NCBI GenBank assembly: GCA_021832085.1
Contig: JAKBLM010000003.1
Coordinates: 10,380 to 74,379 of the forward strand
Direction: 5' to 3'
Length of the DNA stretch: 64,000 bases
From: Acidobacteriota bacterium
Lineage (GTDB): Bacteria; Acidobacteriota; Terriglobia; Acidiferrales; UBA7541
Positions 19,292-38,373 of this stretch are shown piece by piece. The position numbers and the translations under genes are program-made. The notes under the pieces were generated by a model that was not told the origin of the DNA, did no database searches, and saw only the letters and a list, made by a program, of their open reading frames with translations. Position 1 is the stretch's first letter. Every line of letters begins with the position of its first letter.

Positions 19292-19293
19292 TC

Positions 19294-22029: not shown

Positions 22030-24693
22030 ATGACGCGCTTGCGCATGTTCGCCTCGCGCTTCCGGGCCCTGTTTTCGCTCCGCCGCATCGATCGCGAATT
22101 CGAGCAGGAGCTCGAATCGCATGAGCAGCTGCTGACCGAGGAAAACATCCGCCGCGGCATGAGCCCCGACGAGGCCCGGCGCGCCGCGCGCCTCCGCCTC
22201 GGCAATCCCTCGTCGCTGCGCGAGTCGAATCACGACCAGCGCGGCCTGCCCTTCGTCGAATCGAGCCTCCGCGACGTCGCATACGCCATCCGCATGCTCC
22301 GCAAGAGCCCCGGCTTCGCCCTCGTCGCCATTTTCACGCTGGCCCTGGGCATCGGCGCCAACGTCGCCATCTTCCGCGTCGTTGATGCGGCCCTGTTCCG
22401 CCCGCTGCCGTTCCCGCACCCCAGCAAGCTCGTCGAGCTGCGAAATGCGGCCACCGATTTCAAAGCGTGGAAGAGCGAAACGCTCGATCCCACGCACTGG
22501 TGGGCCGCTGCGCCGGCGATTGCTTCCGTGGCCGACTACAGCTCTGACTACGCTGACCTGGAGCAAGCCGGAATGCCCGGCCAGGTTCTGGCCACCCTGA
22601 CCACCGCACAATTCTTCCGCGTGCTGGGAGTTCCTCCCCTCTTCGGACGTACCTACACGGCACATGAGGCCGATGCTCACACGGCCGTCGCCGTCGTTGG
22701 CTTCCGATTCTGGCAGCAACACCTGGGCGGCTCACCGGCCGCACTCGGCAAAACCATTCATCTGAACGGCCACCAGTTCCGGGTGATCGGAGTGATGCCG
22801 CGCGGTTTTTCCTTTCCGCGGAACGCGCAGGTGTGGATTCCGTACCGCGCCAAACCGTCTGGATTCTTTACGGCCTCCGTCATAATTTTCCAAACAATCG
22901 CCCGGCTCCGTTCCTCCGTAAGCCTCGCCCAAGCGCGAGCTGACTTGAACGTCATCTACCACAGGCTTCAAAAAGACGGCATTTACACATCGCCGAAGAA
23001 TCTGCCGAAAATCTCACCGGGTTGGCGGTTCATCTTTGGAGTTACCGTAGTTCCCCTGCGCCAGGCCCTTTACGGCCGTTCGCGCCTGCCGCTGTTGTTC
23101 CTTCTGCTTTCGGCGGCGATGGTCTGGCTGGTGGCGTGCGCCAATCTCGCCGGGCTGATGTTGGCGCGGACCAGCGCGCGGCAGGAGGAACTGGTGATTC
23201 GTGCGGCGCTCGGCGCCACTCCCTGGCGCCTGATGCGGCTGCTCTGGCTCGAAAGCCTAGCTCTGGCCGTGGCCGGTGGCGCGGCCGGCGTATCGCTGGC
23301 AGTCGTGGCGCTCCGCGTGCTGCTACCGTGGGCGCCATCTTCGATTGCCGCAGCCGGCGCGACGGGTGATTGGCCGCGAGTGCTGGCTTTCGTTTTTCTG
23401 CTGACCTTTGCTTCCACTCTGCTCTTCGGCCTGGCTCCCGCCGCGGCCGCCTCCTGGCCCAGCCTGCGCGGGCTGACCGAAAGAGGGCAGGGAAGCAGAA
23501 CCACGACGCCGGGTGGCCGGCGGGCGCGTCAGGTGCTCCTCGGCGCGGAAACCGCGTTGACGCTCGCGCTGCTGATCGCCGCGGGCCTGCTCATCAAGAG
23601 CTTCTGGCGGCTCTCTTCGCAACCCGAAGGCTTCGATCCCCGGCACGTGCTCACTGTCTTGGTCCCGCTGCCATCCACCTGGTCGGTGAAAAAGCAAACC
23701 CTTCTCTATAGCGCCGTGATCGAGCGTGTTGCCGCCTTGCCCGGTGTCGAGGCCGCGGCCGTTGGCAGCTGTTTGCCCGCCCGGCACATGGCCCTTGGCA
23801 TGGTGGGTCTGTTACCCGCCGACCACCCCGGCTCTTCCCGCCCCGTCGGCGCCGTAGAGTGCACGGTCAGCCGGCGATATTTTCAGGTGCTTCGCATTCC
23901 CGTGGTGGCAGGCCGAGTCTTCACGACTGCTGACATAGGCAAGGGGCAAGCCGCCGCGATTCTCAACGCCGCGGCGGCCAGGAAATTGTGGCCCGGCGGG
24001 ATTGCCTTGAGCCGCCGCTTCGGGCTCACCGGTCTGGGACCGAAGATCGAATTCCCGCACGAGGTGATCGGAGTGGTCGCCGACACACGCTCGTGGGGAT
24101 TCACAATGCCGGCTTTCCCTGTTTTCTACGTCCCTTACCAGCTAGGAACATTTGGCCGAACGTTTCTGTTGGCAAGAACCAGCGTGCCGCCAGCCTCGCT
24201 CGCCTCAGCTTTTCGAAGCGCCGTTTGGTCGGTCGATAAGACTGTCCCGGTTCTCGGCATCGAGACGCTGCGGCAACGGATCGCGCGCACGATTTCCGCC
24301 CAGCATTTCCGGACGTGGCTCTGCGCCGGCTTCGCCGCGCTTGCGCTCATACTGGCCTGCGTCGGCATTTTCGGCGTCGTCAGCTACGAGGTGTCGCGCC
24401 GCACCCGAGAGATTGGCATCCGCATGGCGCTCGGCGCCCGAGCCGAAGAGGTGACCGGCATGATGTTGCGCCGCGGCATTCTCGCCGTATGGATTGGCGC
24501 AGCCGTGGGCCTGGGCGGGGCCTTTGCGCTCAGCCGCTGGCTGGCAAGCCTTCTGTTCCATCTCCAGCCGGGCGATCCCGAAGTGTTCGCAAGCGCCGCG
24601 GCGCTGGTCCTGCTTGTCGCAACGGCTGCCGCCTGGCTGCCTGCCCGCCGCGCTGCTCGCGTCGATCCGAACGTCGCCCTGCGCCACGAATGA
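22030..24693 (+). CDS. ADOP-family duplicated permease (second tandem copy)
   Basis: 887 aa. N-terminal ~110 residues are near-identical to the upstream copy. Two FtsX-like modules. C-terminus [19 protein letters not shown]. Confidence 0.9.
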
Positions 24694-25051
24694 CGCCGGC
24701 GCCCCGCGCGATGGATAGCGCATTGCCGGTTATGACTGCGCGAGATTGACTTCCCTGGCGAAAGCCGTTTTGGCAGTACCGACGTGAAGTGGATAGCGGG
24801 GAGGAGCGACCGGCAATTTTTCTAATAACCCGGAAATCGCTGCTGTTGTCATCATGACTGTTACCCTTGCCCTTGGCCCGGGCATCAAATTCTCCAGCGT
24901 TATGGACTCCGTCCCGACTTGCCAAATGGCTAATATGCGTAGGGTGTTTACTATGTAGTAATACACCATTAGCAGCGCATCACCTTATTCGCTCGCTTAC
25001 CATGGTCCATGCTGTTGTAGAAAAGTCCCGATTCGCACGGAGGTGCACGGG

Positions 25052-27844
25052 GTGCACGACAAGTTCTGGGTGGGATTGGTACTGGTATTCAGTCTCGCAA
25101 GTTTTGGTTGTGCTGGTTCGGCGGGTTCCGGGAACGCGAGTGATCCTCCATCGGTGCCGGTGGCAGGTCTTTCGCCGGCCAGTCTCGCCTTTGGGAGCGA
25201 GCAAACGGGTGCGACGAGCGCGGCTCAGACCGTCACTCTGTCAAATACCGGCAATACAAGCCTCTCGATTACGAGCGTCGCGACGTCTGGCGATTTTCAG
25301 GAAACAAACATTTGCCCAGCCAGCCTGGCAGCCGCCGCGTCGTGTACGATTCAGGTGAGTTTCGCGCCGACGGCTTCGGGAACGCGCACCGGGTCTCTCA
25401 CGGTGCAGGACAACGACGCGAGCAGTTCCCAAAGCGTCAGTCTCACGGGCACGGGGACATCATCGACCTCGGCTACCACAGCGGTCTTCTATGTCGCTCC
25501 AGATGGCAACGATTCCTGGAGCGGCAAGCTTGCGGCTCCGAATGCGAATGGGACGGATGGCCCGTTTGCCACATTCGATCATGCCCGTGCCGTCGTGCGC
25601 TCTCTCGATAAGACTGGGCTCGGCCAGGTGGTCGTTGAATTCCGGGCGGGAACGTATGTCCTTCCCTCAACCGAACAGTTCACCGCAGCCGACTCGGGCA
25701 CGCCCACCACACAAATTATTTACGAAAATTATCCAGGCGAAACGCCGGTCATCAGTGGCGGGGTACAAATCAAGGGCTGGACGCCCAGCGCCACAATCCC
25801 GGGCGCGTGGCAGGCGTCGGTCGCCGGCCTCAAGCCATTCGAGCAGCTTTGGGTGAATGGACACAGGCGTGATCGGGTCCGCGTCCAGGCCGGCAGTTCC
25901 AGCGGATACTTTTACAATCTCGGCCCCATATATGTTTCCAATTCCACAGGCTGCACGAATGCGAATTATCCTTCCGGATATAGCCCGTCGCTCGAGATCA
26001 CTTCTGGATCACACGCCGGGCAGTACGAGTGCTTCGATCGATTCTTTTTCAAGACTGGCGACATCAATCCTGCCTGGAGCGGCCTCTCGAATCCGAATCA
26101 CCCCATTGAGATCATCGATTTCGAGGACTGGACGATTTCCCGGATGCGGTTAGAGTCCATCGGTTCGTCCGCCGACTACGCCGGCGCCCCGGCCAATTCC
26201 AGCGTGGCCTATCTCGTGGGCGCCACGGCGCGAGGCAAGTTCTGGGGATTTTTACCTGGCCACCGCTACTTGATCGACAACGTGAAGGACGCGCTCTCCA
26301 GTTCAACTCCCGGCGAGTGGTATCTTCATGAAGACGCTTCCGGCAATCCGACCGTGCTTACCTATGTCCCTGCCGCCGGAGAGGATTTTTCGAGCAGTTC
26401 TCCGCCAGTAGTCATTGCGCCGCAACTGGACCAACTGGTCGTCTCCGACGACCCCAACGGCTTCAGTTACGTCACGTTCAAGGGGCTCACGTTTTCCTAC
26501 GCCAACTGGGTAGCGGGAAGTCCCGGAGCTACGAGTTACAACGACAACGAAGATGCCGGGAACGACGAGGTTCCTGCCGCTTTGAGTTTCTCCTATGCCA
26601 GCCACGTCACGCTCGATTCGGACATCGTCGCGCACGTGGGCGGCTGGGGCGCGGAGTTCATTGGCACGAGTCCGGCCTTCGTTGCACCTTCGGCGCCCTG
26701 CAGCAGCCAGGCGATGAAGGATTGCAACGACGCGATCGTGAATTCCGAATTCACAGACCTCGGCTCCGGAGCGATTCGCATCGGCGCTCAGCCCCGCTCC
26801 GCGGACACCAATGCCAATGTGGCCCAGTACAATCTCGTCTACAACACGGTGATTGCCGGCGGAGATCGCATGATGCCAGGCGTGGGCATCGCCATCGGCA
26901 ATTCACATGACAACGAGGTGGATCACAATGACATCTACGATCTCTACAATACCGGCATCAACGTCGGCGACTCACTCAACTTCGACGGCGGCGGCCTGCC
27001 GAATTTCGCTCATGACAACCGGATCACCTACAACGACGTTCATCAGCTCGGCCAGGGCGTGACCAGCGACATGGGCTGTGTGTACACGGCCACGGCGCTC
27101 CAAACGGGCAACCTGATTGAGCACAATGTTTGCCACAATATCGCAAACGATCCCGGAACCGGCGGCTACGGAGGCTGGGGAATCTATCTCGATCAAGGAT
27201 CGAGTTTCGTCACGGTGATGGACAACCTCGTCTACAACACTACTTCCGCCAGCTTTCACTACAACTGTTCGAATTCGGGAACCTATCTGCCCAACGGAAC
27301 GCCGAACCTCATTCAAAACAATATCTTTGCCTTCGGGGCACGGGGCACGATCCAGCGCACCGGGGACGACGGTGTCCTCAATTTCACTCTCCGAAACAAC
27401 ATCTTCTACTGGGATCAGACCGCGCCGGGTTCCTCTCCGCCTTCTCCGCAGGTTGGCACGTGGACATGTAACGGCGGCTCGAACTTCACGAGCTGCTTCG
27501 ATTTCCAGCGGAACCTGTACTACTCGACCGCGGATCCTTCGATGACCACGTGGAGATTCCTCGCGGCGAATCCCAATCTCCTTTCCTACACTTTGCCCGA
27601 ATGGCAGGCGCTTGGTGAGGATCTGAATTCCGTGGTGAACAAGGACCCGCTGTTCGTTTGCCCCGGCAGCACCGCTTGCTCCTCATCCGGTCCCTATAAT
27701 TTCAGCTTGCAAAGCGATTCGCCGGCCCCGCAATTAATCGGCTTCCAGCCGTTCGATCCGAGCAAGGCGGGGCGAGCCCATCCCGTGCTTATGCCGGCTT
27801 CTCTCCCTCCGGCTTTTCCGTTGCAACTGCCAGCGTCCTATTGA
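25052..27844 (+). CDS. secreted right-handed parallel beta-helix repeat protein with N-terminal Ig-like (HYDIN/ASH-type) domain; probable polysaccharide-active enzyme
   Basis: Signal peptide / possible lipobox region WVGLVLVFSLASFGCAG. Ig-like module reads LSPASLAFGSEQTGATSAAQTVTLSNTGNTSLSITSVATSGDFQETNIC...CTIQVSFAPTASGTRTGSLTV. Beta-helix repeats include NSHDNEVDHNDIYDLYNTGINVG, HDNRITYNDVH, EHNVCHNI and WGIYLDQGSSFVTVMDNLVYN. I prefer GTG 25052 (9 nt after GGAGG) over GTG 25043. Confidence 0.75.
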   Translation: MHDKFWVGLVLVFSLASFGCAGSAGSGNASDPPSVPVAGLSPASLAFGSEQTGATSAAQTVTLSNTGNTSLSITSVATSGDFQETNICPASLAAAASCTIQVSFAPTASGTRTGSLTVQDNDASSSQSVSLTGTGTSSTSATTAVFYVAPDGNDSWSGKLAAPNANGTDGPFATFDHARAVVRSLDKTGLGQVVVEFRAGTYVLPSTEQFTAADSGTPTTQIIYENYPGETPVISGGVQIKGWTPSATIPGAWQASVAGLKPFEQLWVNGHRRDRVRVQAGSSSGYFYNLGPIYVSNSTGCTNANYPSGYSPSLEITSGSHAGQYECFDRFFFKTGDINPAWSGLSNPNHPIEIIDFEDWTISRMRLESIGSSADYAGAPANSSVAYLVGATARGKFWGFLPGHRYLIDNVKDALSSSTPGEWYLHEDASGNPTVLTYVPAAGEDFSSSSPPVVIAPQLDQLVVSDDPNGFSYVTFKGLTFSYANWVAGSPGATSYNDNEDAGNDEVPAALSFSYASHVTLDSDIVAHVGGWGAEFIGTSPAFVAPSAPCSSQAMKDCNDAIVNSEFTDLGSGAIRIGAQPRSADTNANVAQYNLVYNTVIAGGDRMMPGVGIAIGNSHDNEVDHNDIYDLYNTGINVGDSLNFDGGGLPNFAHDNRITYNDVHQLGQGVTSDMGCVYTATALQTGNLIEHNVCHNIANDPGTGGYGGWGIYLDQGSSFVTVMDNLVYNTTSASFHYNCSNSGTYLPNGTPNLIQNNIFAFGARGTIQRTGDDGVLNFTLRNNIFYWDQTAPGSSPPSPQVGTWTCNGGSNFTSCFDFQRNLYYSTADPSMTTWRFLAANPNLLSYTLPEWQALGEDLNSVVNKDPLFVCPGSTACSSSGPYNFSLQSDSPAPQLIGFQPFDPSKAGRAHPVLMPASLPPAFPLQLPASY

Positions 27845-27921
27845 GCGCGAACTCGGGTTGCGGTTGTCGTGGCTCGGCACGTTCACGACGGCTTTTCCGT
27901 CCGCGCATACCGAATCACGGA

Positions 27922-27956: not shown

Positions 27957-30797
27957 CTAATGACGGTCTGCCAGACCGAGCACTTTCACGACCGCGTCGT
28001 GCAACGCCGGGCGCACCTTCTTGTGCAGTTCGTTTTCCGCCGAGCGATAAACGCGGTTCGTGAGCAGCACGACGAAGAGTTCCTTTTCCGGATCGAGCCA
28101 CAGGGAAGTCCCCGTGAATCCTGTGTGTCCAAAGCTCCCCCGTGAAAAGAATCGCCCGCACGAAGACGCTTCGCCCGGCACATCCCACCCCAACGCCCGA
28201 GCGGCATCGCCAATGGTTTGCCGCGCGGTAAATCGCTGGATGGTCGCTCGCTCGAGCAGCCGCCGGTGCGCGTAGCTGCCGCCGTTCAGCAGCATCTGGC
28301 AAAAAACGGCCAGATCGCCCGTCGTCGAAAACAGCCCTGCATGGCCCGCCACGCCGCCCATTGCCGAAGCGTTCTGATCGTGTACTTCGCCCCATACCTG
28401 CCGCCTGCGCCACGTCTTGTCGTTTTCCGTCGGCGCGATGCGCGCTCGCAGCCCGCGCCCGGGCCGGAAGCGCGACGCTGTCATCCCGAGCGGCCGGAAA
28501 ATTCGCTCGCGCGCCAGCTCGTCGAGACTCATGCCGCTCATCTGCCGCACGATTTCCCCGAGTAGAATGAAATCGAGATCGGAATAGACGATCCTCGTCC
28601 CCGGCTCCGATTCGAGCGGCTCGGCAAGCACACGCGAGAGGATGGAGCGGTATCCCTTCGCCTTCCGGAAGAACTCGCGATGCGCAGGCAGCCCAGAGCT
28701 GTGCCGGAGCAAGTCTTCGATCGTGACTTTCGCGCGCCATTCGCGTTGCGGACCCTCCACCCACTCGGGCAGGTAGAGCGTGACCGGCGCGTCGAGCCGC
28801 AGCATTCCCGCTTCCACCAGTTGCATCGCCGCTGTCGTAGTTACCACCACTTTCGTCAGCGAGGCGACGTCGTAAATTGTGTCCGCTGTCACGGCCGGCG
28901 ATTTTGCGCTGTAGGTTTGCCGCCCGAAGCGATGCACGATCAGCCGCCCTTCGTGCCCCACGGCGAGCACGCCGCCCGGAAACGCGCGGTCATTCACCGC
29001 CTGCTCGAGCACGTCGCGAGCTGGTTGCAGCGCCTCTTCCATTTCCACTGAGCCAGCGGCGAGCGTCATCGGATTGGCTCCCACACGCAATCCCAAGCCC
29101 ATCGCCGCCACTCCCGGCACAGTCACCGGCAGCTTGCCGCCGATGGCCACCTCGCCGAAAATGGCGCGCCCCATTGCCCGTTCGGCCACAGGCGTCGTGC
29201 TGAAAGCGGCGATCCAGCATCGCGCGCCAGGGAAATGCGAAATCAGGTAGGGACTGCCGAAGCAGGCGACGACCACCGGCTTTCCCGCAGCCAGCACGCG
29301 CCCAACCAGCTTCGCCTGCTCCTCCGGCAAGCCGATCGTGCCCTTGCGGTCGGCCACGCGAACGTAGAGCGCCACGATGGCCACGTCGTAACTCTCTGCC
29401 GCAGGCAACTCCACGCGCTCGGGAGGAACGAATCGCGCATCGCTGCGCAGCACCTCGAGAGAATCCACGCGCCCGCGAATTTCGTTTTCCAATCCATCGC
29501 CCGGCAGCAGCTCGGGATCGGCCGAAATCGCCACCAGCAGTGCCCGCGCCGGCCGAGTCGCATCGAGCGGCAGCAGGTGGTCTCCGTCGCGCAGCAGCGT
29601 CACGCCACGATCGGCGATATCGAGCGCCTCGCGCGCGAATTCCGGTCTGCCAAACGCTTCGTTCAACCGGCCGAGGTCTACCGCTGGCCGTTTCTCAAGC
29701 CCCAGCCTCGCCTTGGCGAAAAGGATGCGCCGCACGGCGTCGTCGATTTTCGCCATGGCCAGCCGCCCCTCGCGCACAGCTTCGCGGAGCGAGCTGAGCG
29801 CTGCCTCCGGGCTCGGCGGAAGCAGCAAAATATCCGCACCCGCCTGCATCGAGAGCACTGCCGTGCGATTCGCGGGGTAGAGCATGGCCACGCCGGCCAT
29901 GTCGAGCGAATCGGTGACCACCAGTCCCCGAAATCCCATGTCGCGCCGCAGCAGCCCGTCGATGATCGTGGGCGACAGCGTCACCGGCAGCTTTCGGTTC
30001 GGTTCGAGAGCGGGCACCAGAAGGTGCCCGGTCATCATCGAGCCCACGCCGGCCCGGATCGCCGCGCGGAACGGCGCCAACTCGACCCGCTCCAGCCGCT
30101 CCCGGTCGCCCGTGATCACTGGCAGCCCCATGTGCGAATCGACGTCGGTGTCGCCGTGGCCGGGGAAATGTTTGGCCGTGGCGAGCACGCCATTCGCCTG
30201 CGCCCCGTGCACAAATTGCGCCGCCAGTTCGCCCACCTTCGCCGGGTCCTCGCCGAATGAGCGAATGTTGATGATCGGGTTCGCCGGGTTGTTGTTGACA
30301 TCCGAAACCGGCGCAAAGATCCAGTTCACGCCGGCAGCCCTGGCTTCGAGTGCGGTGATCCGGCCGTGACGGTACGCGTCGCGCGGATTGCCGGTCGCCG
30401 CAACGGCCATCAGGTGGGGCAGGGAAGTCCCTTCGGCGAGGCGCATTGCCGTCCCGGTCTCGAAATCGGCCGCGACCAGCAGCGGGATCTTCGCAGCGCT
30501 CTGCAGCCGGTTGAGCAGCGCTGCGGTCGGATAGACGCGGTCGATCTCGATGCCGGCCGGCGTGCGAAACGCCTGGAGCAGCAGCCCGCCGACTTTACCC
30601 CCGGTCACCCAGTTTTCCAGCCGCCGCAGTTCCGGGTCCCCGGCCGAGGTGAACCGGCCCCACACGTAGAGCATCAGCAGCTGCCCCAGCTTTTCGTCGA
30701 GCGTCATGCGCGCGAGCGTCCGCTCGACCCAACTTGCCCCTGGGTGCGATGCCCGGGGAGATTTCCGCTGCTTGTTCTGCTTTGCTCGAGAAGCCAT
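27957..30797 (-). CDS. fusion protein: GH3 beta-N-acetylhexosaminidase (NagZ-like, two-domain) + C-terminal beta-lactamase-fold serine hydrolase (AmiE/AmpH-like)
   Basis: GH3 motif ATAKHFPGHGDTDVDSHMGLPV. A GH3 C-terminal-like sandwich region follows (KPVVVACFGSPYLISHFPG...). The serine hydrolase domain has SxxK (VASLTKVVV), YSDLDFILLGEIV and GHTGFTGTSLWLDP. I prefer ATG 30797 (GAGG 9 nt upstream) because the track start 30914 would leave only 10 nt before the divergent gene. No signal peptide is evident. Confidence 0.85.
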   Translation of the reverse strand: MASRAKQNKQRKSPRASHPGASWVERTLARMTLDEKLGQLLMLYVWGRFTSAGDPELRRLENWVTGGKVGGLLLQAFRTPAGIEIDRVYPTAALLNRLQSAAKIPLLVAADFETGTAMRLAEGTSLPHLMAVAATGNPRDAYRHGRITALEARAAGVNWIFAPVSDVNNNPANPIINIRSFGEDPAKVGELAAQFVHGAQANGVLATAKHFPGHGDTDVDSHMGLPVITGDRERLERVELAPFRAAIRAGVGSMMTGHLLVPALEPNRKLPVTLSPTIIDGLLRRDMGFRGLVVTDSLDMAGVAMLYPANRTAVLSMQAGADILLLPPSPEAALSSLREAVREGRLAMAKIDDAVRRILFAKARLGLEKRPAVDLGRLNEAFGRPEFAREALDIADRGVTLLRDGDHLLPLDATRPARALLVAISADPELLPGDGLENEIRGRVDSLEVLRSDARFVPPERVELPAAESYDVAIVALYVRVADRKGTIGLPEEQAKLVGRVLAAGKPVVVACFGSPYLISHFPGARCWIAAFSTTPVAERAMGRAIFGEVAIGGKLPVTVPGVAAMGLGLRVGANPMTLAAGSVEMEEALQPARDVLEQAVNDRAFPGGVLAVGHEGRLIVHRFGRQTYSAKSPAVTADTIYDVASLTKVVVTTTAAMQLVEAGMLRLDAPVTLYLPEWVEGPQREWRAKVTIEDLLRHSSGLPAHREFFRKAKGYRSILSRVLAEPLESEPGTRIVYSDLDFILLGEIVRQMSGMSLDELARERIFRPLGMTASRFRPGRGLRARIAPTENDKTWRRRQVWGEVHDQNASAMGGVAGHAGLFSTTGDLAVFCQMLLNGGSYAHRRLLERATIQRFTARQTIGDAARALGWDVPGEASSCGRFFSRGSFGHTGFTGTSLWLDPEKELFVVLLTNRVYRSAENELHKKVRPALHDAVVKVLGLADRH

Positions 30798-30880
30798 TCG
30801 CTCGAACCTCAATTCGGGAGTTGCGAAACGGTGAAAATCCGCGAAAAACCTGCAAAAACGGCGTGCCCGCTGCGCGGCAG

Positions 30881-30910
30881 TTGACGCGGAACGGCCGGGG
30901 CTTGTATATA
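30881..30910 (+). promoter_or_regulatory. sigma70-type promoter candidate for the NamZ-fusion gene
   Basis: TTGACG (30881..30886), 18 nt spacer, TATATA (30905..30910) preceded by TG. The ATG is at 30925, so the leader is short. Confidence 0.4.
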
Positions 30911-30924
30911 GCACAGGCTAAGTC

Positions 30925-33306
30925 ATGAAGAAACCATTTGCAGTCTCCGGATCCCTGATTCTCCCCGTACTCGTCGTCGCGCTTGCCGCTTCGGTCATTG
31001 CCGCCGTGCCCGGCCCGCCGAAGCTCTCCGACGTCGATGCCATCATCAACAAGGCTATCTCGAAAAACGAATTGCCCGGCGCCGTGCTCGTGGTAGGACA
31101 TCGCGGACGCATCGTCTACGAAAAGGCCTATGGCATGCGCGCGTACGCCCCGCGTCGTCAGCGCATGACGGTCAATACGATTTTTGACCTCGCTTCGCTG
31201 ACCAAGGTTTATGCCACCGCTCCGTCGATCATGCTGCTGTTCCAGCAAGGCAAGATCGACCTGAACGAGCCCGTGGCCCACTACCTGCCGCAGTTTGGCG
31301 CCAACGGCAAGAGCCAGATCACCGTTCGCATGCTGCTCACTCATTTTTCCGGCCTGCGCCCCGATCCGATCATCCCGCCTGGCGTCAAGGGCTACAAAGC
31401 CATCCTCCATATCATCTATGCTGACCACCCGGTGGCGCCGCCCGGAATGCGCTTCATCTATAGCGACTGCAATTTCATCGTTCTTGGCCAGCTCGTGCAG
31501 AAGATCTCCGGCTTGCCCTTGAACGTTTTCGCCCAGCGCTATCTCTATCGTCCACTGGGCATGTACCACACGCGTTTCCTGCCGCCGAAAAGCTGGATCC
31601 CGCGCATTGCGCCCACCCTGGACGTCCACGGCGTGCCGCTGCGAGGCGTGGTGGAGGACCCGACCGCGAGAGCCATGGGCGGCGTCGCCGGCCATGCGGG
31701 GCTCTTTTCGGACGCCCACGATCTGGCGATTTTCTCCCAGATGATGCTGAATAACGGGCGCATCCCCAGGGGGCGGTATCGCGGCCGCTACCTGTTCCAG
31801 CCGTCGGTGGTTCATAAAATGACGTCGGTGCAGTCGCCGCCGTGGAGTCCGGATCTGGAAGGCCTCGGCTGGGACATCGACAGCCTTTTCGACTCGAACC
31901 GCGGCGGACTCTTTCCGATCGGTTCCTACGGCCACACCGGTTATACGGGCACGTCCGTGTGGATCGATCCGGCGAGCCAGACCTACGTGATCCTGCTCGC
32001 CAGCAGGCTGTATCCCCATTACCGTCCGCCGATCTTGAGCCTGCGCTACCGTGTCGCCACACTGGTTGCGGCGGCGCTCGGCGCCGGCGCCCGCACCGGA
32101 CCCAGTTCCCCGATCTTTCGCAGCATCGGCGCCGATCGGCCTTACAATCTGGCCGGCATCACCACGCATAACGACCAGACCCTCACCGGCATCGATGTGC
32201 TCGAACAGGAGCATTTCGCGCCGCTCCAGGGCAAGCGCGTGGGCCTGATCACCAACAACACCGGCGTCGACCGCGAGGATCGGCGCACCATCGACGTTCT
32301 CGATCACGCCCCCGGCGTCAAGCTGGTGGCCATCTTCAGCCCGGAGGGTGGCATCACCGGCATGGCCAACACCTTCGTTCCAAACAGCCGGGACCCGGCG
32401 ACGGGCCTGCCCATCTACAGTCTCTACGGCAAGACGCGGCGGCCCACGGCCAGCGAGCTGAAAGGCATCAACGCGCTCGTTTACGACCTTCAAGATGCCG
32501 GCGTCCGCTTCTACACCTTCACTACCACCATGGTCTATTGCATGCAGGCCGCTGCCAAATTTCACATCCCCTTCTTCGTGCTCGACCGACCCGATCCGCT
32601 CGGCGGCGAGCGCATTGCGGGCCCGATGCTCGATCCTGACCGGCTTTCCTTTGTCGGTGCTTTCCCCATGCCGGTCATCTACGGCATGACCATCGGCGAG
32701 CTGGCGGAGATGATCAACGCACAGGACCACATCGGCGCCGATCTCACCGTCATCAAGATGAAGGACTGGCACCGCCGCGACACATTCGACCAGACCGGCC
32801 TCGTTTGGGTTCCTCCGTCGCCCAATCTCCGCAACATCAGTGAAACGCTGCTTTATCCGGGCATCGAGATCCTGCAGGCCGGCGGCGTTTCGGTCGGCCG
32901 CGGCACCGATACTCCGTTCGAGGTCGTTGGCGCACCCTACATCCACGCAGCCGAGTTCGCCGACTACCTTAACCACCAATTCATCCCCGGCCTCCGCTTC
33001 GTGCCCGTCTACTTCACGCCCACGAGCGGTATCTTCCACGGCCAACTCTGCGGAGGTGTCGAACTGCTCGTCACCGACCGGGCGTCGGTTTTCCCGATGC
33101 TGACGGGCATCGAACTTGCCTCGGCCCTACACCACTTCTACCCGCACGATTTCCAGCTGGGCCGCATTATCGAACTGCTTGGTTCGCGCTCCACTCTCGC
33201 GGAGTTGGAAAAGGGCGATGCCCCTTCCAGCATTGTCCTTAGCTGGGACCGGCAGATCGAGAAATTCCGCCAGATACGGAAGAAATATCTGCTCTATCCG
33301 AATTGA
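30925..33306 (+). CDS. fusion protein: N-terminal beta-lactamase-fold serine hydrolase (AmiE/AmpH-like) + C-terminal DUF1343 (NamZ-like exo-beta-N-acetylmuramidase) domain
   Basis: Signal peptide MKKPFAVSGSLILPVLVVALAASVIAA. Hydrolase motifs LASLTKVYA, YSDCNFIVLGQLV and GHTGYTGTSVWIDP. DUF1343 hallmarks GKRVGLITNNTGVDREDRRTIDVL, VKLVAIFSPEGGITG and LVYDLQDAGVRFYTFTTTM. Confidence 0.85.
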   Translation: MKKPFAVSGSLILPVLVVALAASVIAAVPGPPKLSDVDAIINKAISKNELPGAVLVVGHRGRIVYEKAYGMRAYAPRRQRMTVNTIFDLASLTKVYATAPSIMLLFQQGKIDLNEPVAHYLPQFGANGKSQITVRMLLTHFSGLRPDPIIPPGVKGYKAILHIIYADHPVAPPGMRFIYSDCNFIVLGQLVQKISGLPLNVFAQRYLYRPLGMYHTRFLPPKSWIPRIAPTLDVHGVPLRGVVEDPTARAMGGVAGHAGLFSDAHDLAIFSQMMLNNGRIPRGRYRGRYLFQPSVVHKMTSVQSPPWSPDLEGLGWDIDSLFDSNRGGLFPIGSYGHTGYTGTSVWIDPASQTYVILLASRLYPHYRPPILSLRYRVATLVAAALGAGARTGPSSPIFRSIGADRPYNLAGITTHNDQTLTGIDVLEQEHFAPLQGKRVGLITNNTGVDREDRRTIDVLDHAPGVKLVAIFSPEGGITGMANTFVPNSRDPATGLPIYSLYGKTRRPTASELKGINALVYDLQDAGVRFYTFTTTMVYCMQAAAKFHIPFFVLDRPDPLGGERIAGPMLDPDRLSFVGAFPMPVIYGMTIGELAEMINAQDHIGADLTVIKMKDWHRRDTFDQTGLVWVPPSPNLRNISETLLYPGIEILQAGGVSVGRGTDTPFEVVGAPYIHAAEFADYLNHQFIPGLRFVPVYFTPTSGIFHGQLCGGVELLVTDRASVFPMLTGIELASALHHFYPHDFQLGRIIELLGSRSTLAELEKGDAPSSIVLSWDRQIEKFRQIRKKYLLYPN

Positions 33307-33493: not shown

Positions 33494-34198
33494 ATGACAC
33501 CGATGTGCGCTTCCCACCCGAAGGCATGGCTTTCCTGGAGCAGCGGCAAGGACAGCGCCTGGGCCCTGCACGTCGTCCGGGAGCAAGCCAAGCTGGACGT
33601 CGTCGCCCTGCTGACCACCGTCAACCGCGTGTTCGGCCGCGTCTCCATGCATGGCGTGCGCGAAGCTCTCGTCGACGCCCAAGCTGAGCGCGCGGGCTTG
33701 CCGCTGGTCAAAGTCCCGATCCCGTACCCTTGCCCAAACGCGGCCTACGAAGCGGCAATGGCCGCCGCCATGGATAGGGCGCGCGCCGAGGGCGTCACCC
33801 ATGTCGTTTTCGGCGATCTTTTCCTCGAAGACATCCGCCAGTATCGCGAACAGCAACTCGCCCGCTGCTCGATTACGCCGGTCTTTCCGCTCTGGCAGCT
33901 CGATACAGCCGATTTGGCCCGGCAGATGGTCGCCAGCGGTCTGGAGGCCTGGCTCGCCTGCGTCGATCCGCGCAAGCTCGATCGCGCTTTCGCCGGCCGC
34001 AAATTCAACACAGGCCTGCTCGCCGACCTGCCAGCAGGAATCGACCCGTGCGGCGAATACGGCGAATTTCACACCTTTGCCAGCGCCGGTCCCATGTTCC
34101 GATCGCCGATCCCGGTCGCGTTGGGAGATATGGTGGACCGCGAAGGGTTCGTTTACGCCGACCTGCTGCCTCAGGCCGTCACGCCGCCGACCCGCTGA
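33494..34198 (+). CDS. adenine-nucleotide alpha-hydrolase superfamily protein, MJ0570/Dph6-related ATP pyrophosphatase type
   Basis: Internal ATG 33494 of ORF 33116..34198. PP-loop-like WSSGKDSAWAL. C-terminal GEYGEFHTFASAGPMF is typical of this family. Confidence 0.7.
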   Translation: MTPMCASHPKAWLSWSSGKDSAWALHVVREQAKLDVVALLTTVNRVFGRVSMHGVREALVDAQAERAGLPLVKVPIPYPCPNAAYEAAMAAAMDRARAEGVTHVVFGDLFLEDIRQYREQQLARCSITPVFPLWQLDTADLARQMVASGLEAWLACVDPRKLDRAFAGRKFNTGLLADLPAGIDPCGEYGEFHTFASAGPMFRSPIPVALGDMVDREGFVYADLLPQAVTPPTR

Positions 34199-36972: not shown

Positions 36973-38373
36973 TCAGGCCACCGGCCTCGCCGCGTCCCGC
37001 GCCCGCCAATATCTGTAGAAGAACAGGCCGATCACGATAACAAAAAGCCCGAGACCCGCGCGCAGCGGTTGCTCGACCAGCACACTGGCGGAAACGGCGA
37101 TCGCCCCGAGGATGAAAATCACGGGGACCACCGGATATCCCCACGTCCGATAGGGCCGCGGCAGGTCGGGCTCCTTTCGGCGGAGCCGCAAAACGGAAGC
37201 CGCTGCCAATGCGTAGAAAATGAATTGCACGAAAATGTAGAGGGAGAAGAGCTGCGTGAACGTGCCGGTCAACGCCAGGATCGAGGCCAGGCATGCCTGG
37301 AAGATGAGCGCGTTGCCCGGCGTGCGGAAGCGGGGATGGATGCCGTCCGCGATGCGGAAAAATCGCCGGTCGCGCGCCATCGCGTAATCGACCCGCGCGC
37401 CGCTCAGAATCGACGAGTTCAGCGTGCCCAGCGCGCAGATGATCATCGCGATCGTTAGCCAATCGGCCACATGCGAACCGGCCACGCGCGCAAGCACATC
37501 GGAAACCACGTGCGGCGACGCGGCCACCTTGCTGAAAGGCAGCACATGGAAACAGGCCCCGGTGGTGAAGATGTACAGGGCCATCACCAGCGCCACGCCG
37601 CCAATGAGCGAGCGCGGGATGTTGCGGGCCGGGTTTTTGATTTCCGCGCCGACCAGTCCCAGATTGTCCCAGCCGTCGTACGCCCAGAGCGCGGCTACCA
37701 GCGCCGCGAAAAATCCTCCAACCGTCGCGCCGCCCACAAGACCCTGCGGTGCGGCAAGCGCCGCTGCCGGATGCGCGCCGAGCGCGAAACCGGCGAAAAT
37801 CACCGCCGCGATCACGGCCACCTTGATCACCGTCAGCGCCACCTGCACCTGCCCGCCCAGCTTCACGCCCAGGTAGTTGACGAACGTCACCAGGGCAATG
37901 ACGCCCACCGCCAGCGGCATCGCCAGCGTGAAGACGAAGGCACTGGGCCCGGACTCCCAGGGCAAAGTGAAGTGAAAAGTGTGAAGCGGCATCAGCACGT
38001 GCGGATCGAGGAAACCCCAAAACAGCAGCAGGCCCGCGGCAATCGTCGCGATCGAGGACGAGCGCCCGACGATCGAATGCATCCACCCAAACAGAAATCC
38101 CCACACCGGTCCGAAACCGCGGCTGATGTACGCGTATTCCCCTCCGGCTTCCGGAATCGCCGCCCCCAGCTCCCCGTAGGCGAAAGTGCCGAAAAGCGTC
38201 AGTATTCCGCCCGCGATCCACACCGCGTAAACCAGCCCGGGCGTCTTCACCGTCTGCGCCATATTGGCCGGGACGATGAAAATTCCGGTGCCAATCATCG
38301 TGCCGACAACGATCGCCACCGCCGCCCAAGCGCCCAGCTCCCGCATCAGGTCGAGCCGTCGCTCCTCGCTCAT
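36973..38373 (-). CDS. amino acid permease (APC superfamily)
   Basis: 466 aa, about 12 TM. N-terminal motif AVAIVVGTMIGTGIFIVPANMA. Its start overlaps the upstream gene stop (ATGA at 38370..38373). Confidence 0.85.
   Translation of the reverse strand: MSEERRLDLMRELGAWAAVAIVVGTMIGTGIFIVPANMAQTVKTPGLVYAVWIAGGILTLFGTFAYGELGAAIPEAGGEYAYISRGFGPVWGFLFGWMHSIVGRSSSIATIAAGLLLFWGFLDPHVLMPLHTFHFTLPWESGPSAFVFTLAMPLAVGVIALVTFVNYLGVKLGGQVQVALTVIKVAVIAAVIFAGFALGAHPAAALAAPQGLVGGATVGGFFAALVAALWAYDGWDNLGLVGAEIKNPARNIPRSLIGGVALVMALYIFTTGACFHVLPFSKVAASPHVVSDVLARVAGSHVADWLTIAMIICALGTLNSSILSGARVDYAMARDRRFFRIADGIHPRFRTPGNALIFQACLASILALTGTFTQLFSLYIFVQFIFYALAAASVLRLRRKEPDLPRPYRTWGYPVVPVIFILGAIAVSASVLVEQPLRAGLGLFVIVIGLFFYRYWRARDAARPVA

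What the first reader, a model, noticed from the sequence alone, without database searches (positions are those of the whole stretch)
27957..33306. Divergent pair of two-headed cell-wall salvage enzymes: GH3(NagZ-like)+serine-hydrolase fusion and serine-hydrolase+DUF1343(NamZ-like) fusion
Two back-to-back genes share a ~127-nt control region. Each carries a paralogous beta-lactamase-fold domain with parallel motifs: ASLTKV, YSD..F..LG..V, GHTG(F/Y)TGTS.W.DP. In one gene this domain sits C-terminal to a two-domain GH3 hexosaminidase (KHFPGHGDTDVDSH). In the other it sits N-terminal to a DUF1343 domain (GKRVGLITNNTG, DLQDAGVRFYTF). In the Bacillus subtilis MurNAc recycling operon (murQ-murR-murP-amiE-nagZ-ybbC), the three activities are separate proteins. 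These are NagZ (GH3), AmiE (a beta-lactamase-fold MurNAc-L-Ala amidase) and YbbC/NamZ (DUF1343 exo-muramidase). Here the amidase-like module appears fused to each of the two exo-glycosidases, which would couple sugar removal and peptide removal in one polypeptide. Only the NamZ-type fusion has a signal peptide, suggesting one periplasmic and one cytoplasmic enzyme. I do not know of biochemical characterisation of either architecture.
Basis: partly seen in the sequence, partly recalled or inferred. Interest (0 to 1): 0.7.

Follow-up and report, generated by a model that had tools for sequence, protein, structure and literature searches.

The report
Fused cell-wall salvage enzyme pair
Two back-to-back genes of a soil Acidobacterium each join a sugar-trimming enzyme for bacterial cell wall to an AmiE-like peptide-removing module; it is a real, widespread and previously catalogued fused version of the three-enzyme Bacillus wall-recycling system, and its amidase step has never been tested.

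Summary
Gene A (27957..30797, minus strand) is GH3 NagZ-type plus a PF00144 serine hydrolase. Gene B (30925..33306, plus strand) is signal peptide, PF00144, then NamZ (GH171). All catalytic motifs are intact and near-invariant in about 120 homologues of each gene.

The two serine-hydrolase domains are 39% identical to each other. They match AmiE and PBP4B (YfeW) far better than any esterase, peptidase or lactamase tested. They form sister subfamilies of AmiE, not orthologues.

The divergent pair is conserved across Acidobacteriota (Terriglobia). It sits in a conserved neighbourhood with murA, murQ, a sodium:solute symporter and a PF01869 kinase, which resembles the Tannerella MurT/MurK/MurQ route.

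Related genomes give fusion evidence for the same pathway:
- a widespread single-chain GH3-BL-NamZ triple fusion, with domains in the Bacillus reaction order;
- a MurQ-BL fusion;
- standalone copies of this hydrolase upstream of nagZ-namZ in three Bacillales loci.

The best reading is exo-lytic peptidoglycan salvage with the amidase step attached to both glycosidases. This is not new as an architecture. A 2008 survey listed both fusions, and RmNag3 (GH3+BL) was shown to be a GlcNAcase. The amidase activity and the coupling between domains remain untested. Gene A's missing signal peptide is specific to its lineage.

The parts
27957..30797 (-). Gene A: GH3 (NagZ-type) plus AmiE-like serine hydrolase, 946 aa, no signal peptide
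   Evidence: ORF and translation. Pfam domains. A 100% identical protein is in NCBI, Logan and ENA as 946 aa and in JGI as 916 aa. GAGG lies 9 nt upstream of the ATG. AF2 gives mean pLDDT 92.6 and pTM 0.90.
29721..30704 (-). Gene A GH3 N-terminal catalytic domain (aa 32-359), with the KHFPGHGDTDVDSH Asp-His signature and nucleophile D296
   Evidence: Pfam PF00933, E 4e-86. The signature and D296 are conserved in 120-121 of 121 homologues. The best structural match is B. subtilis NagZ, 4gyj/3bmx.
29112..29603 (-). Gene A GH3 C-terminal domain (aa 399-562)
   Evidence: Pfam PF01915, E 1e-15.
28032..29018 (-). Gene A serine-hydrolase (PF00144, AmiE/PBP4B-like) domain, aa 594-922; motifs S646-L-T-K649, Y738-S-D740, H891-T-G893
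   Evidence: Pfam E 7e-70. NCBIfam best match is PBP4B at 206 bits, below the 385 cut-off. BLASTP to YfeW 39.5% identity and to AmiE 35.5%. Motifs conserved in 119-121 of 121 homologues.
30798..30924 (.). 127-nt divergent intergenic spacer
   Evidence: Read directly from the sequence. No Rfam hit. No inverted repeat.
30881..30917 (+). Conserved promoter-like element TTGACGC-N16/17-GTATATAGCACA(G/C)G, 7 nt upstream of the gene B ATG
   Evidence: Invariant in five distinct Acidobacteriota genomes, while the rest of the spacer cannot be aligned. Occurs once per locus and once in the 64-kb window, even allowing 2 mismatches.
30925..33306 (+). Gene B: signal peptide, AmiE-like serine hydrolase, NamZ (GH171), 793 aa
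   Evidence: ORF and translation. Pfam. A 100% identical protein is on 21 contigs. AF2 gives mean pLDDT 80.8 and pTM 0.56, with a disordered linker at aa 389-416.
30925..31002 (+). Gene B signal peptide (aa 1-26, MKK, hydrophobic core, VIA|A)
   Evidence: Read from the translation. An equivalent hydrophobic N-terminus is present in 115 of 120 homologues.
31036..32019 (+). Gene B serine-hydrolase (PF00144, AmiE/PBP4B-like) domain, aa 38-365; motifs S91-L-T-K94, Y179-S-D181, H337-T-G339
   Evidence: Pfam E 4e-64. PBP4B model 166 bits. 39% identical to the gene A domain and 35% to AmiE. Motifs conserved in 119-121 of 121 homologues. It forms its own clade with 99% bootstrap.
32239..33297 (+). Gene B NamZ_N plus NamZ_C (GH171 exo-beta-N-acetylmuramidase), aa 439-791; E474 and R659 correspond to BsNamZ Glu92 and Arg279
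   Evidence: Pfam E 2e-78 and 7e-42. 43% identity over the full length to Bacillus NamZ. PDB 4k05 E 8.5e-79 and TMt 0.87. E474 and R659 are invariant.
17115..18029 (-). murQ (MurNAc-6-phosphate etherase). It lies next to or one small gene from gene A in related genomes; here a roughly 10-kb insertion separates them.
   Evidence: TIGR00274, 357.6 bits against a cut-off of 302. Synteny. tblastn.
15781..17049 (-). murA (UDP-GlcNAc 1-carboxyvinyltransferase), a conserved neighbour of murQ
   Evidence: TIGR01072, 567 bits against a cut-off of 393. Synteny.
38370..39857 (-). Sodium:solute symporter, a conserved neighbour and a candidate MurT-like MurNAc or muropeptide importer
   Evidence: Pfam SSF and TIGR00813. 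Conserved in 5 genomes. An SSF gene also heads the triple-fusion operon. [quoted passage not shown]
41577..42533 (+). BcrAD_BadFG-family sugar kinase (MurK/NagK-like), a conserved neighbour
   Evidence: PF01869 is assigned to the identical gene in the same-species loci L002-L005. The window ORF itself was not scanned against Pfam. It gives a tblastn match to the L001 PF01869 gene at 46% identity and scores 103 bits against NCBIfam NagK, below the 370 cut-off. Tf_MurK is PF01869. The same family sits between namZ and the murQ~BL fusion in L094.
33503..34198 (+). Dph6-like ATP pyrophosphatase (PF01902), downstream of gene B in all five genomes (one small gene intervenes in L091); role unknown
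   Evidence: Pfam. Synteny.

Best explanation
The two genes encode a fused version of the exo-lytic peptidoglycan salvage set that Bacillus subtilis makes as three separate proteins, NagZ, AmiE and NamZ.

In Bacillus the order of action is known. NagZ removes the terminal GlcNAc from the non-reducing end. AmiE cuts the stem peptide off the MurNAc that is now exposed. NamZ, which accepts only peptide-free MurNAc, then removes that MurNAc. The cycle repeats.

In the window the middle activity is present twice, as an AmiE/PBP4B-family serine hydrolase. One copy follows the NagZ-type GH3 (steps 1 and 2 in gene A). The other precedes NamZ (steps 2 and 3 in gene B). Each glycosidase therefore carries the amidase it needs next to it.

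The released MurNAc would be imported by the neighbouring sodium:solute symporter, phosphorylated by the PF01869 kinase and converted by MurQ. This would be a Tannerella-type route that does not use a PTS transporter.

What is shown: domain identities, intact catalytic motifs, family placement, conserved synteny, and fusion relatives including a GH3-BL-NamZ single chain.

What is inferred: that the serine hydrolases cleave MurNAc-L-Ala; that fusion couples the steps kinetically; the substrates of the transporter and the kinase; and that gene A acts in the cytoplasm in this lineage.
For: Domains are all far above Pfam thresholds.

Catalytic residues are conserved in about 120 homologues of each gene. 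These are the GH3 KHFPGHG..DSH signature and D296, the SxxK/YSD/HxG motifs in both BL domains, and NamZ E474 and R659, which correspond to BsNamZ Glu92 and Arg279 (PMC8054146).

The NamZ domain is 43% identical to Bacillus NamZ. The GH3 part is 32% identical to BsNagZ, and BsNagZ is its best structural match.

The BL domains score 150-200 bits against AmiE and YfeW. They score 60-93 bits against AmpH, AmpC and every solved PF00144 structure.

The pair and its neighbourhood (murA-murQ ... SSF ... PF01869 kinase) are conserved in four other Acidobacteriota genomes at 58-76% identity. murQ passes its equivalog cut-off.

Fusion evidence from relatives:
- A single-chain GH3_N-GH3_C-BL-NamZ_N-NamZ_C protein is present in more than 105 distinct clusters from Thermoanaerobaculia, Kofleriaceae and Luteimonas. 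It sits in an SSF-M14 peptidase-fusion operon.
- A MurQ-BL fusion lies in the operon namZ-kinase-murQ~BL-GH3-PRK-anmK.
- A standalone BL of the A/B type lies upstream of nagZ-namZ in Sediminibacillus, Sporosarcina and Neobacillus.

Published work shows that NamZ enzymes need peptide-free MurNAc.

The AF2 model of gene A has pTM 0.90, so GH3 and BL are predicted to pack as one body.
Against: No enzyme assay exists for any BL domain of this subfamily. In RmNag3 only the GH3 activity was tested.

The domains are not AmiE orthologues. They are 35-40% identical, score below the NCBIfam PBP4B cut-off, and ingroup monophyly against the esterase, peptidase and AmpH outgroups has only 54% NJ bootstrap support.

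From my own knowledge, E. coli PBP4B, the other named member of the family, was reported as a weak DD-carboxypeptidase, so the chemistry within the family may vary.

The closest solved fold is the esterase EstG.

In gene B the linker between domains is disordered (pTM 0.56), so no fixed geometry for channelling is predicted.

Gene A lacks a signal peptide here. If it is cytoplasmic, the two enzymes cannot act on the same glycan strand in this organism.
Confidence: 0.66

Rival explanations
1. The serine-hydrolase modules are DD-carboxypeptidases or endopeptidases, as PBP4B was described. They would trim or un-crosslink stem peptides so that glycan ends become accessible, and a different amidase would remove the peptides.
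For: The best NCBIfam match for both domains is the PBP4B model. The SxxK/YSD/HTG motif set is that of DD-peptidases, and the R61 DD-peptidase is among the PDB hits. PBP4B's DD-carboxypeptidase activity is cited from my own knowledge, not from a paper I read here.
Against: AmiE is 52.6% identical to PBP4B and is an experimentally shown exo-MurNAc-L-Ala amidase (PMC8054146). NamZ requires peptide-free MurNAc, so a fused DD-peptidase would not make the NamZ substrate. The domain order in the triple fusion matches the NagZ, amidase, NamZ reaction order. A cytoplasmic MurQ-BL fusion has no crosslinked substrate to work on.
Confidence: 0.15
2. The modules are esterases of the family VIII or EstG type. 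They might act as peptidoglycan O-acetyl esterases, or act on other glycans, removing a sugar decoration that blocks the glycosidases.
For: The closest solved structures are esterases: 4ivi at 93 bits, and EstG 7u1b/7uda. One relative has a PF00756 esterase domain fused to the BL domain.
Against: These esterases score less than half of what AmiE/YfeW score. Family VIII esterases and EstG have W-G-G where these domains, like AmiE, have H-T-G (alignments; AmiE sequence). Genomic association is with murQ, namZ, nagZ and anmK.
Confidence: 0.07
3. Gene A is mainly a chitooligosaccharide or general beta-N-acetylglucosaminidase. Its serine-hydrolase domain would be an accessory or binding module unrelated to peptidoglycan.
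For: RmNag3, which has the same architecture, hydrolysed pNP-GlcNAc, chitobiose and chitopentaose (PMC6987092).
Against: In RmNag3 the BL domain and muropeptide substrates were not tested. The catalytic triad-like motifs of the BL domain are near-invariant. In other Acidobacteriota genomes gene A lies next to or one small gene from murQ and is paired with a NamZ fusion. The best structural match is B. subtilis NagZ bound to GlcNAc-MurNAc.
Confidence: 0.08
4. The two-domain reading is an artefact of assembly or gene calling that joined separate genes.
For: None was found.
Against: The ORFs are uninterrupted. The identical gene is on 21 contigs from NCBI, JGI and Logan assemblies. Thousands of homologues exist, and the best 120 for each gene all have the same architecture. 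The AF2 model of gene A is one compact body with pTM 0.90.
Confidence: 0.01

Closest known systems
Bacillus subtilis NagZ / AmiE / NamZ exo-lytic peptidoglycan degradation set (murQ-murR-murP-amiE-nagZ-namZ operon; PMC8054146)
   Same: The same three protein families are present: a GH3 NagZ type with the Asp-His signature, an AmiE/PBP4B-family serine hydrolase, and GH171 NamZ with the Glu92 and Arg279 equivalents. murQ is linked in both. NamZ is 43% identical, NagZ 32% and AmiE 35%.
   Different: Here the proteins are fused pairwise and the amidase-like module is duplicated. The two genes are divergent rather than in one operon. There is no MurP PTS transporter and no MurR; an SSF transporter and a PF01869 kinase are present instead. 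The serine hydrolases belong to a sister subfamily, not to AmiE proper. Gene A lacks the signal peptide that BsNagZ has.
RmNag3 of Rhodothermus marinus (GH3 domain 1 + domain 2 + beta-lactamase domain; PMC6987092)
   Same: It has the same three-domain architecture as gene A. It was shown to be a beta-N-acetylglucosaminidase, and its authors suggested a link to peptidoglycan turnover.
   Different: RmNag3 has a signal peptide. Its beta-lactamase domain was neither modelled nor assayed. No NamZ partner or murQ linkage was described, and its gene neighbours are unrelated. I did not have its sequence, so I did not measure identity to gene A.
Single-chain GH3-BL-NamZ triple fusions (e.g. P0257, 1349 aa; Thermoanaerobaculia, Kofleriaceae, Luteimonas MAGs)
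   Same: They contain the same three catalytic modules, with the BL domain of the gene A type (431 bits to the A-type HMM). Most are secreted (89 of 105 have a signal-peptide-like N-terminus). An SSF transporter gene is in the same operon.
   Different: There is one polypeptide with one BL domain serving both glycosidases. The window has two polypeptides, each with its own BL domain, and the gene B BL domain forms a separate clade (99% bootstrap). I found no published description of the triple fusion in the held library.
E. coli PBP4B (YfeW), encoded in the murQ-murP-yfeW cluster
   Same: It is the best NCBIfam model for both BL domains. It is 39.5% identical to the gene A domain. Its gene is also linked to murQ.
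   Different: It is a standalone protein of 434 aa with extra insertions. Both window domains score well below its equivalog cut-off (206 and 166 bits against 385).
Tannerella forsythia MurT-MurK-MurQ MurNAc uptake route, with NamZ1 and NamZ2 (PMC5790795; bioRxiv 10.1101/2021.12.02.470905)
   Same: Both have a sodium-symporter-family transporter, a PF01869 kinase, MurQ and periplasmic NamZ, and neither uses a PTS transporter. The Tannerella authors state that the MurNAc-L-Ala amidase feeding NamZ is still unidentified.
   Different: The window's transporter and kinase match only at family level; orthology was not tested. Here the missing amidase is proposed to be built into the NamZ and NagZ proteins themselves.

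Membership tests
GH3 NagZ-type beta-N-acetylglucosaminidase | Glyco_hydro_3 N- and C-terminal domains above Pfam gathering scores | tested here: met
   289.6 bits against a cut-off of 27, and 58.5 against 31.
GH3 NagZ-type beta-N-acetylglucosaminidase | NagZ signature KH(F/I)PG(H/L)G-x4-D(S/T)H (Asp-His dyad) and the catalytic Asp nucleophile | tested here: met
   KHFPGHGDTDVDSH at aa 209-222, and D296 in VVTDSLDM aligned to IVTDALNM of BsNagZ. Conserved in 120-121 of 121 homologues. That this motif defines the NagZ type is from my own knowledge of the NagZ literature.
GH3 NagZ-type beta-N-acetylglucosaminidase | Hydrolysis of GlcNAc-beta-1,4-MurNAc(-peptide) | not testable with these tools
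   Only indirect evidence is available. The best structural match is BsNagZ in complex with GlcNAc-MurNAc. RmNag3 is active on pNP-GlcNAc.
GH171 NamZ exo-beta-N-acetylmuramidase | NamZ_N and NamZ_C domains above Pfam gathering scores, with full-length similarity to characterised BsNamZ | tested here: met
   262.9 and 144.3 bits. 43% identity over 384 aa to the B. spizizenii NamZ orthologue. 4k05 TMt 0.87.
GH171 NamZ exo-beta-N-acetylmuramidase | Putative catalytic Glu92 and the Arg279 of BsNamZ | tested here: met
   E474 in SPEGG and R659 in GRGT, both 121 of 121 conserved. Numbering was checked on the Bacillus NamZ sequence. The residues are named in PMC8054146.
GH171 NamZ exo-beta-N-acetylmuramidase | Release of terminal, peptide-free MurNAc | not testable with these tools
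   This needs pNP-MurNAc and MurNAc-GlcNAc assays.
AmiE/PBP4B subfamily of PF00144 serine hydrolases | PF00144 fold with SxxK, Y-S-D and H-T-G motifs as in AmiE (SNTK, YSD, HTG) | tested here: met
   Motifs. Conservation.
AmiE/PBP4B subfamily of PF00144 serine hydrolases | Closer to AmiE/YfeW than to any other characterised PF00144 member | tested here: met
   BLASTP gives 150-200 bits against AmiE/YfeW and 60-80 against AmpH/AmpC. The PDB best is 93 bits. HMM scores are 208-244 against 43-118.
AmiE/PBP4B subfamily of PF00144 serine hydrolases | Orthology: reaches the NCBIfam PBP4B equivalog cut-off, or nests inside the AmiE+YfeW clade | tested here: not met
   206 and 166 bits against a cut-off of 385. 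In the NJ tree the A-type and B-type clades are sisters to the AmiE+YfeW clade, not inside it.
AmiE/PBP4B subfamily of PF00144 serine hydrolases | Monophyly of AmiE/YfeW plus the A and B types against esterases, D-peptidase and AmpH | tested here: inconclusive
   The grouping is recovered in the NJ tree, but with 54% bootstrap and only four outgroups.
AmiE/PBP4B subfamily of PF00144 serine hydrolases | Genomic linkage to MurNAc recycling genes | tested here: met
   Linked to murQ, NamZ and GH3 in 5 Acidobacteriota genomes. MurQ-BL fusion operon. Standalone copy upstream of nagZ-namZ in 3 Bacillales loci. E. coli murQ-murP-yfeW.
AmiE/PBP4B subfamily of PF00144 serine hydrolases | Exo-MurNAc-L-Ala amidase activity | not testable with these tools
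   Shown only for B. subtilis AmiE (PMC8054146).
Tannerella-type MurT/MurK/MurQ MurNAc utilisation route | MurQ etherase | tested here: met
   TIGR00274, 357.6 bits against a cut-off of 302, for 17115..18029.
Tannerella-type MurT/MurK/MurQ MurNAc utilisation route | MurK-type PF01869 kinase and a sodium-symporter-type MurT | tested here: inconclusive
   The matches are at family level only: PF01869 on the identical gene in same-species loci, NagK model at 103 bits against a cut-off of 370, and SSF/TIGR00813. I had no Tf_MurK or Tf_MurT sequences for a direct comparison.

The most novel reading that the evidence does not exclude
The AmiE-like modules are true exo-MurNAc-L-Ala amidases, and they are physically coupled to the glycosidase sites. 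Under this reading the GH3-BL, BL-NamZ and GH3-BL-NamZ proteins are processive machines that strip sugar, peptide and sugar from glycan-strand ends without releasing intermediates.

This widespread but unassayed serine-hydrolase subfamily (about 4,900 clusters at 50% identity) would then be the MurNAc-L-Ala amidase still reported as unidentified in NamZ-using Gram-negative bacteria such as Tannerella and Bacteroides.

In the lineage of this window, loss of the signal peptide would have moved the GH3-BL enzyme into the cytoplasm. There it would do the work of NagZ plus AmpD using a serine hydrolase rather than a zinc amidase.
Probability: 0.3. Interest if true: 0.65.

Novelty: new variant of a known kind. 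Interest (0 to 1): 0.45.

Why it matters
Exo-lytic peptidoglycan degradation by NagZ, AmiE and NamZ has been worked out only in Bacillus subtilis. NamZ was reported to occur mainly in Bacteroidetes.

The fusions found here give genomic evidence that the three activities form one functional unit across several lineages: Acidobacteriota, plus MAGs labelled Kofleriaceae and Luteimonas, and spore-former-like contigs.

They also define a large, unassayed AmiE-like serine-hydrolase subfamily. It is a concrete candidate for the amidase that must act before NamZ, which is still stated to be unidentified in Tannerella.

Acidobacteria are abundant in soil, and bacterial necromass is a large pool of soil carbon and nitrogen. 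A dedicated, conserved wall-scavenging locus in these organisms is therefore ecologically relevant.

For enzymology, the compact GH3-BL model (pTM 0.90) and the natural triple fusion are ready-made constructs for testing substrate hand-over between a glycosidase and an amidase.

Tried and rejected
- **Promoter scan:** a sigma-70 scan of the spacer found nothing. Its rule requires T at the last -10 position. A conserved TTGACGC...GTATATAGCACA element was found later by alignment.
- **RNA and repeats:** an Rfam scan of 27000-34500 gave no hit, and the spacer has no inverted repeat. No riboswitch or palindromic operator is evident.
- **Literature:** the primary AmiE paper, Litzinger et al. 2010 (PMID 20400549 / PMC2901692), is not held. 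AmiE's activity is therefore cited through PMC8054146 and PMC5061867. A search for 'NagZ AmiE fused' found no description of these fusions.
- **Active-site distances:** AF2 coordinates are not exposed to scripts, so I could not measure distances between active sites. For gene B the inter-domain geometry is not defined in any case (pTM 0.56, disordered linker).
- **Phylogeny:** my NJ tree has weak deep support (54-60%) and few outgroups. AmpC fell below the length filter. I rely on score gaps more than on the tree.
- **Hidden signal peptide:** I looked for a signal peptide for gene A hidden by a wrong start codon or a frameshift. No hydrophobic peptide exists in any frame upstream.
- **Assembly artefact:** rejected.
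- **Failed tool runs:** one Pfam call exceeded the residue limit and two scripts failed on file handling. All three were repeated successfully.

Full report
**1. The observation**

The region holds two long divergent ORFs. Gene A runs on the minus strand from an ATG at 30797 to a stop at 27957 (946 aa). The frame stays open up to a GTG at 30914, but that extension is not hydrophobic and is not conserved. Gene B runs on the plus strand, 30925..33306 (793 aa).

Pfam places the domains as follows, all far above gathering scores:
- Gene A: Glyco_hydro_3 at aa 32-359, Glyco_hydro_3_C at aa 399-562, Beta-lactamase/PF00144 at aa 594-922.
- Gene B: PF00144 at aa 38-365, NamZ_N at aa 439-638, NamZ_C at aa 642-791.

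Gene B begins with a textbook signal peptide. Gene A begins MASRAKQNKQRKSPRASHPG, and no hydrophobic segment exists in any frame upstream. The start at 30797 is supported by a GAGG 9 nt upstream and by similar basic N-termini in close relatives.

The fusions are not assembly artefacts. The identical gene B is on 21 contigs from NCBI, JGI and Logan assemblies. The 120 best database relatives of each protein all have the same architecture.

Named relatives come from Acidobacteriota, class Terriglobia, 'Candidatus Acidiferrales/Acidoferrales'. The window matches MAG GCA_027389045.1.

**2. What the domains are**

*GH3 part.* It carries the NagZ-type signature KHFPGHGDTDVDSH and the nucleophile Asp (D296). 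Its best sequence and fold matches are bacterial GH3 N-acetylglucosaminidases. The top Foldseek hit is B. subtilis NagZ bound to GlcNAc-MurNAc.

*NamZ part.* It is 43% identical over its full length to the NamZ of a close B. subtilis relative. I fetched that sequence from a Bacillus spizizenii locus with the order murQ-murR-murP-amiE-nagZ-namZ. The domain keeps the equivalents of the proposed catalytic Glu92 and of Arg279, namely E474 and R659.

*Serine-hydrolase domains.* The two are 39% identical to each other. Their next-best matches are E. coli PBP4B/YfeW and Bacillus AmiE:

| Query domain | YfeW | AmiE | AmpH | AmpC |
|---|---|---|---|---|
| Gene A BL (bits) | 200 | 176 | 80 | 67 |
| Gene B BL (bits) | 150 | 168 | 60 | 67 |

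Other scores point the same way:
- Against the whole PDB, the best PF00144 structure is a family VIII esterase at 93 bits.
- HMMs built from the two domain families score AmiE orthologues and YfeW at 208-244 bits. Esterases, an alkaline D-peptidase, AmpH and AmpC score 43-118 bits.
- Both domains share AmiE's SxxK / Y-S-D / H-T-G motif set. The esterases have W-G-G at the third motif.

These domains are not AmiE orthologues, however. They fall below the NCBIfam PBP4B cut-off. In an NJ tree the gene A type and the gene B type (99% bootstrap) are sister clades to AmiE+YfeW, and deep support is weak (54-60%). No structure of any AmiE/PBP4B-family member is in the PDB. The nearest solved fold is the Caulobacter esterase EstG.

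All catalytic motifs of all four catalytic modules are conserved in 119-121 of 121 sequences across relatives at 57-100% identity. This argues that both serine hydrolases are active enzymes rather than binding modules.

**3. Context**

The divergent pair and its surroundings are conserved in four further Acidobacteriota genomes, whose gene B orthologues are 58-76% identical. The common order is:

murA - murQ - (small gene) - GH3~BL <> BL~NamZ - Dph6-like ATP pyrophosphatase - (TrbI-like) - periplasmic binding protein - amino-acid permease - sodium:solute symporter - (PMT_2) - BcrAD/BadFG-family kinase.

The window has all of these genes. murQ passes its equivalog cut-off. Here a roughly 10-kb insertion separates murQ from gene A. 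The insertion carries two MacB/FtsX permeases and a DUF1573/beta-helix protein.

A sodium-symporter-family transporter (MurT), a PF01869 kinase (MurK) and MurQ make up the PTS-independent MurNAc route of Tannerella forsythia (PMC5790795). The window's transporter and kinase match that route only at family level.

**4. Evidence from relatives**

An exhaustive HMMER search with the gene A serine-hydrolase domain finds 4,921 clusters (50% identity) at E <= 1e-30. I classified the 150 best representatives with my own domain HMMs:
- about 99 are GH3-BL;
- 45 are standalone, many with signal peptides;
- one is BL-NamZ;
- one is a single chain GH3_N-GH3_C-BL-NamZ_N-NamZ_C (Pfam-confirmed).

That triple fusion is common. 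Searching with it returned more than 105 distinct full-length clusters, and named sources include Thermoanaerobaculia, Kofleriaceae and Luteimonas. Of these, 89 of 105 have a signal-peptide-like N-terminus. In one such locus the gene follows an SSF transporter gene and an M14 peptidase gene.

Its domain order is the reaction order established in B. subtilis: NagZ, then AmiE, then NamZ (PMC8054146).

Two further relatives link the subfamily to MurNAc recycling:
- A MurQ-BL fusion sits in the operon namZ - PF01869 kinase - murQ~BL - GH3 - PRK - anmK.
- In Sediminibacillus, Sporosarcina and Neobacillus, a standalone BL of the window's type lies upstream of nagZ-namZ. It is 38-40% identical to the window domains but only 32-33% identical to AmiE.

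Together these are independent gene-fusion and gene-order links between this hydrolase subfamily and NagZ, NamZ and MurQ.

**5. Mechanism proposed**

Published work shows that NamZ enzymes remove only peptide-free terminal MurNAc. It also shows that NagZ, AmiE and NamZ together, but not singly, digest sacculi from the non-reducing end.

The most economical reading is that gene A performs steps 1 and 2, GlcNAc removal and then peptide removal. Gene B performs steps 2 and 3, peptide removal and then MurNAc removal. MurNAc would then be taken up and converted by the neighbouring symporter, kinase and MurQ.

The AF2 model of gene A is confident as a single body (mean pLDDT 92.6, pTM 0.90). This is compatible with hand-over between its two active sites. 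Gene B's two halves are joined by a disordered linker at aa 389-416 (pTM 0.56), so there the coupling would come from proximity only.

These steps are inferred and not shown: the amidase chemistry, the kinetic coupling, and the substrates of the transporter and kinase.

**6. Localisation**

Of gene A's 120 homologues, 85 have a signal-peptide-like N-terminus. The forms without one, which have basic N-termini, are concentrated among the window's closest relatives. For gene B, 115 of 120 homologues have a signal peptide.

The ancestral state is therefore two secreted enzymes. Loss of the signal peptide from gene A is a derived feature of this lineage. The MurQ-BL fusion shows that this hydrolase subfamily can work in the cytoplasm.

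If gene A is cytoplasmic here, it would act on imported muropeptides, as NagZ and AmpD do in Proteobacteria. That comparison rests on my own knowledge of that pathway.

**7. Comparison with what is known, and novelty**

Neither architecture is new to databases or to the literature:
- A 2008 survey of serine-protease architectures listed DDPept-DUF1343, Glyco_hydro_3-DDPept and GH3+GH3_C-DDPept (PMC2605481).
- RmNag3 of Rhodothermus marinus has gene A's architecture and was shown to be a beta-N-acetylglucosaminidase. Its beta-lactamase domain was left unmodelled and unassayed (PMC6987092).
- NCBI already names gene B homologues 'NamZ domain-containing protein'.

I found none of the following in the held literature:
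- a functional reading of the BL domain as the AmiE step;
- any study of the BL-NamZ fusion;
- the conserved divergent pair;
- the triple fusion;
- recognition that NamZ is widespread in Acidobacteriota. The NamZ paper names Bacteroidetes, Firmicutes, Actinobacteria and gamma-proteobacteria.

I therefore rate this as a new variant of a known kind of system, of moderate interest. It would not greatly surprise a specialist. It does give a concrete and testable candidate for the amidase that must act before NamZ, which is still reported as unidentified in Tannerella.

**8. Rival explanations**

- *DD-peptidase function, as for PBP4B.* This is the main rival. It is disfavoured because it would not generate the NamZ substrate, and because AmiE, at 52.6% identity to PBP4B, is a demonstrated amidase.
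- *Esterase function.* This is disfavoured by the score gaps and by the H-T-G motif.
- *A role in chitin degradation for gene A.* This is possible as a side activity but does not explain the murQ and NamZ linkage.
- *Assembly artefact.* This is excluded.

Noticed in passing
window 30881..30917 (+): There is an invariant element TTGACGC-N16/17-GTATATAGCACA(G/C)G just upstream of the gene B ATG. It is conserved in five Acidobacteriota genomes, while the rest of the spacer cannot be aligned. It occurs once per locus and once in the 64-kb window. It is probably the gene B promoter with a very short leader, possibly with an operator.
   Followed up: partly
window about 18040..27850: A roughly 10-kb insertion separates murQ from gene A, unlike in the related genomes. 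It carries two MacB_PCD/FtsX permease genes (19132..21975 and 22030..24693) and a 933-aa DUF1573/Ig-like plus beta-helix protein (25043..27844). In L001 and L091 murQ and gene A are adjacent; in L089 and L090 one small gene lies between them.
   Followed up: partly
window 33503..34198 (+): A Dph6-like ATP pyrophosphatase (PF01902) lies downstream of the BL-NamZ gene in all five genomes compared, directly so in four; one small gene intervenes in L091. Its role in this locus is unknown.
   Followed up: no
L092:10001-14050 and L093:2172-6221; proteins P0257 and P0403-P0512: Single-chain GH3-BL-NamZ triple fusions of about 1,340 aa are widespread in Thermoanaerobaculia and in some Kofleriaceae and Luteimonas MAGs. 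In L092 the operon is SSF transporter - M14 peptidase - triple fusion.
   Followed up: partly
L094:3192-11333 and L095: A contig that looks like a spore-former's (a SASP gene is nearby) carries the operon namZ - PF01869 kinase - murQ~BL fusion (699 aa) - GH3 - PRK - anmK. It places the same serine-hydrolase subfamily in a cytoplasmic fusion with MurQ.
   Followed up: partly
L030:6011-7072, L047:6057-7067, L063:5966-7027: In Sediminibacillus, Sporosarcina and Neobacillus a PF00144 protein lies upstream of nagZ-namZ. It is closer to the window's domains (38-40% identity) than to B. subtilis AmiE (32-33%). Two different AmiE-like subfamilies therefore fill this position in Bacillales.
   Followed up: partly
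proteins P0254 (1617 aa), P0267, P0289; P0371; P0372: The same hydrolase family has other architectures: giant proteins with tandem BL-BL domains plus FIVAR or fn3 domains, which group with AmiE/YfeW in the NJ tree; BL plus an AmiA-like PF07313 domain; and a PF00756 esterase plus BL.
   Followed up: no
window 6840..10694 (-) and 11405..15262 (-): Two paralogous genes of about 1,285 aa encode CarboxypepD_reg plus an outer-membrane beta-barrel, a layout I recognise as TonB-dependent-transporter-like. They lie just upstream of murA-murQ. A similar gene lies next to murA-murQ in L090. They might import wall fragments across the outer membrane; this is speculative.
   Followed up: no
window 52279..55113 (-): A GH2 protein carries an exo-beta-D-glucosaminidase Ig-fold domain, about 19 kb from the pair. 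It could matter for N-deacetylated peptidoglycan or chitosan. No link to the pair was established.
   Followed up: no
L089:9821-10001: In GCA_035946455.1 the conserved promoter-like element and an ATGAAGAAACC start like the window's lie about 170 nt upstream of the annotated start of the gene B orthologue. That start may be mis-called, or the N-terminus may differ.
   Followed up: no
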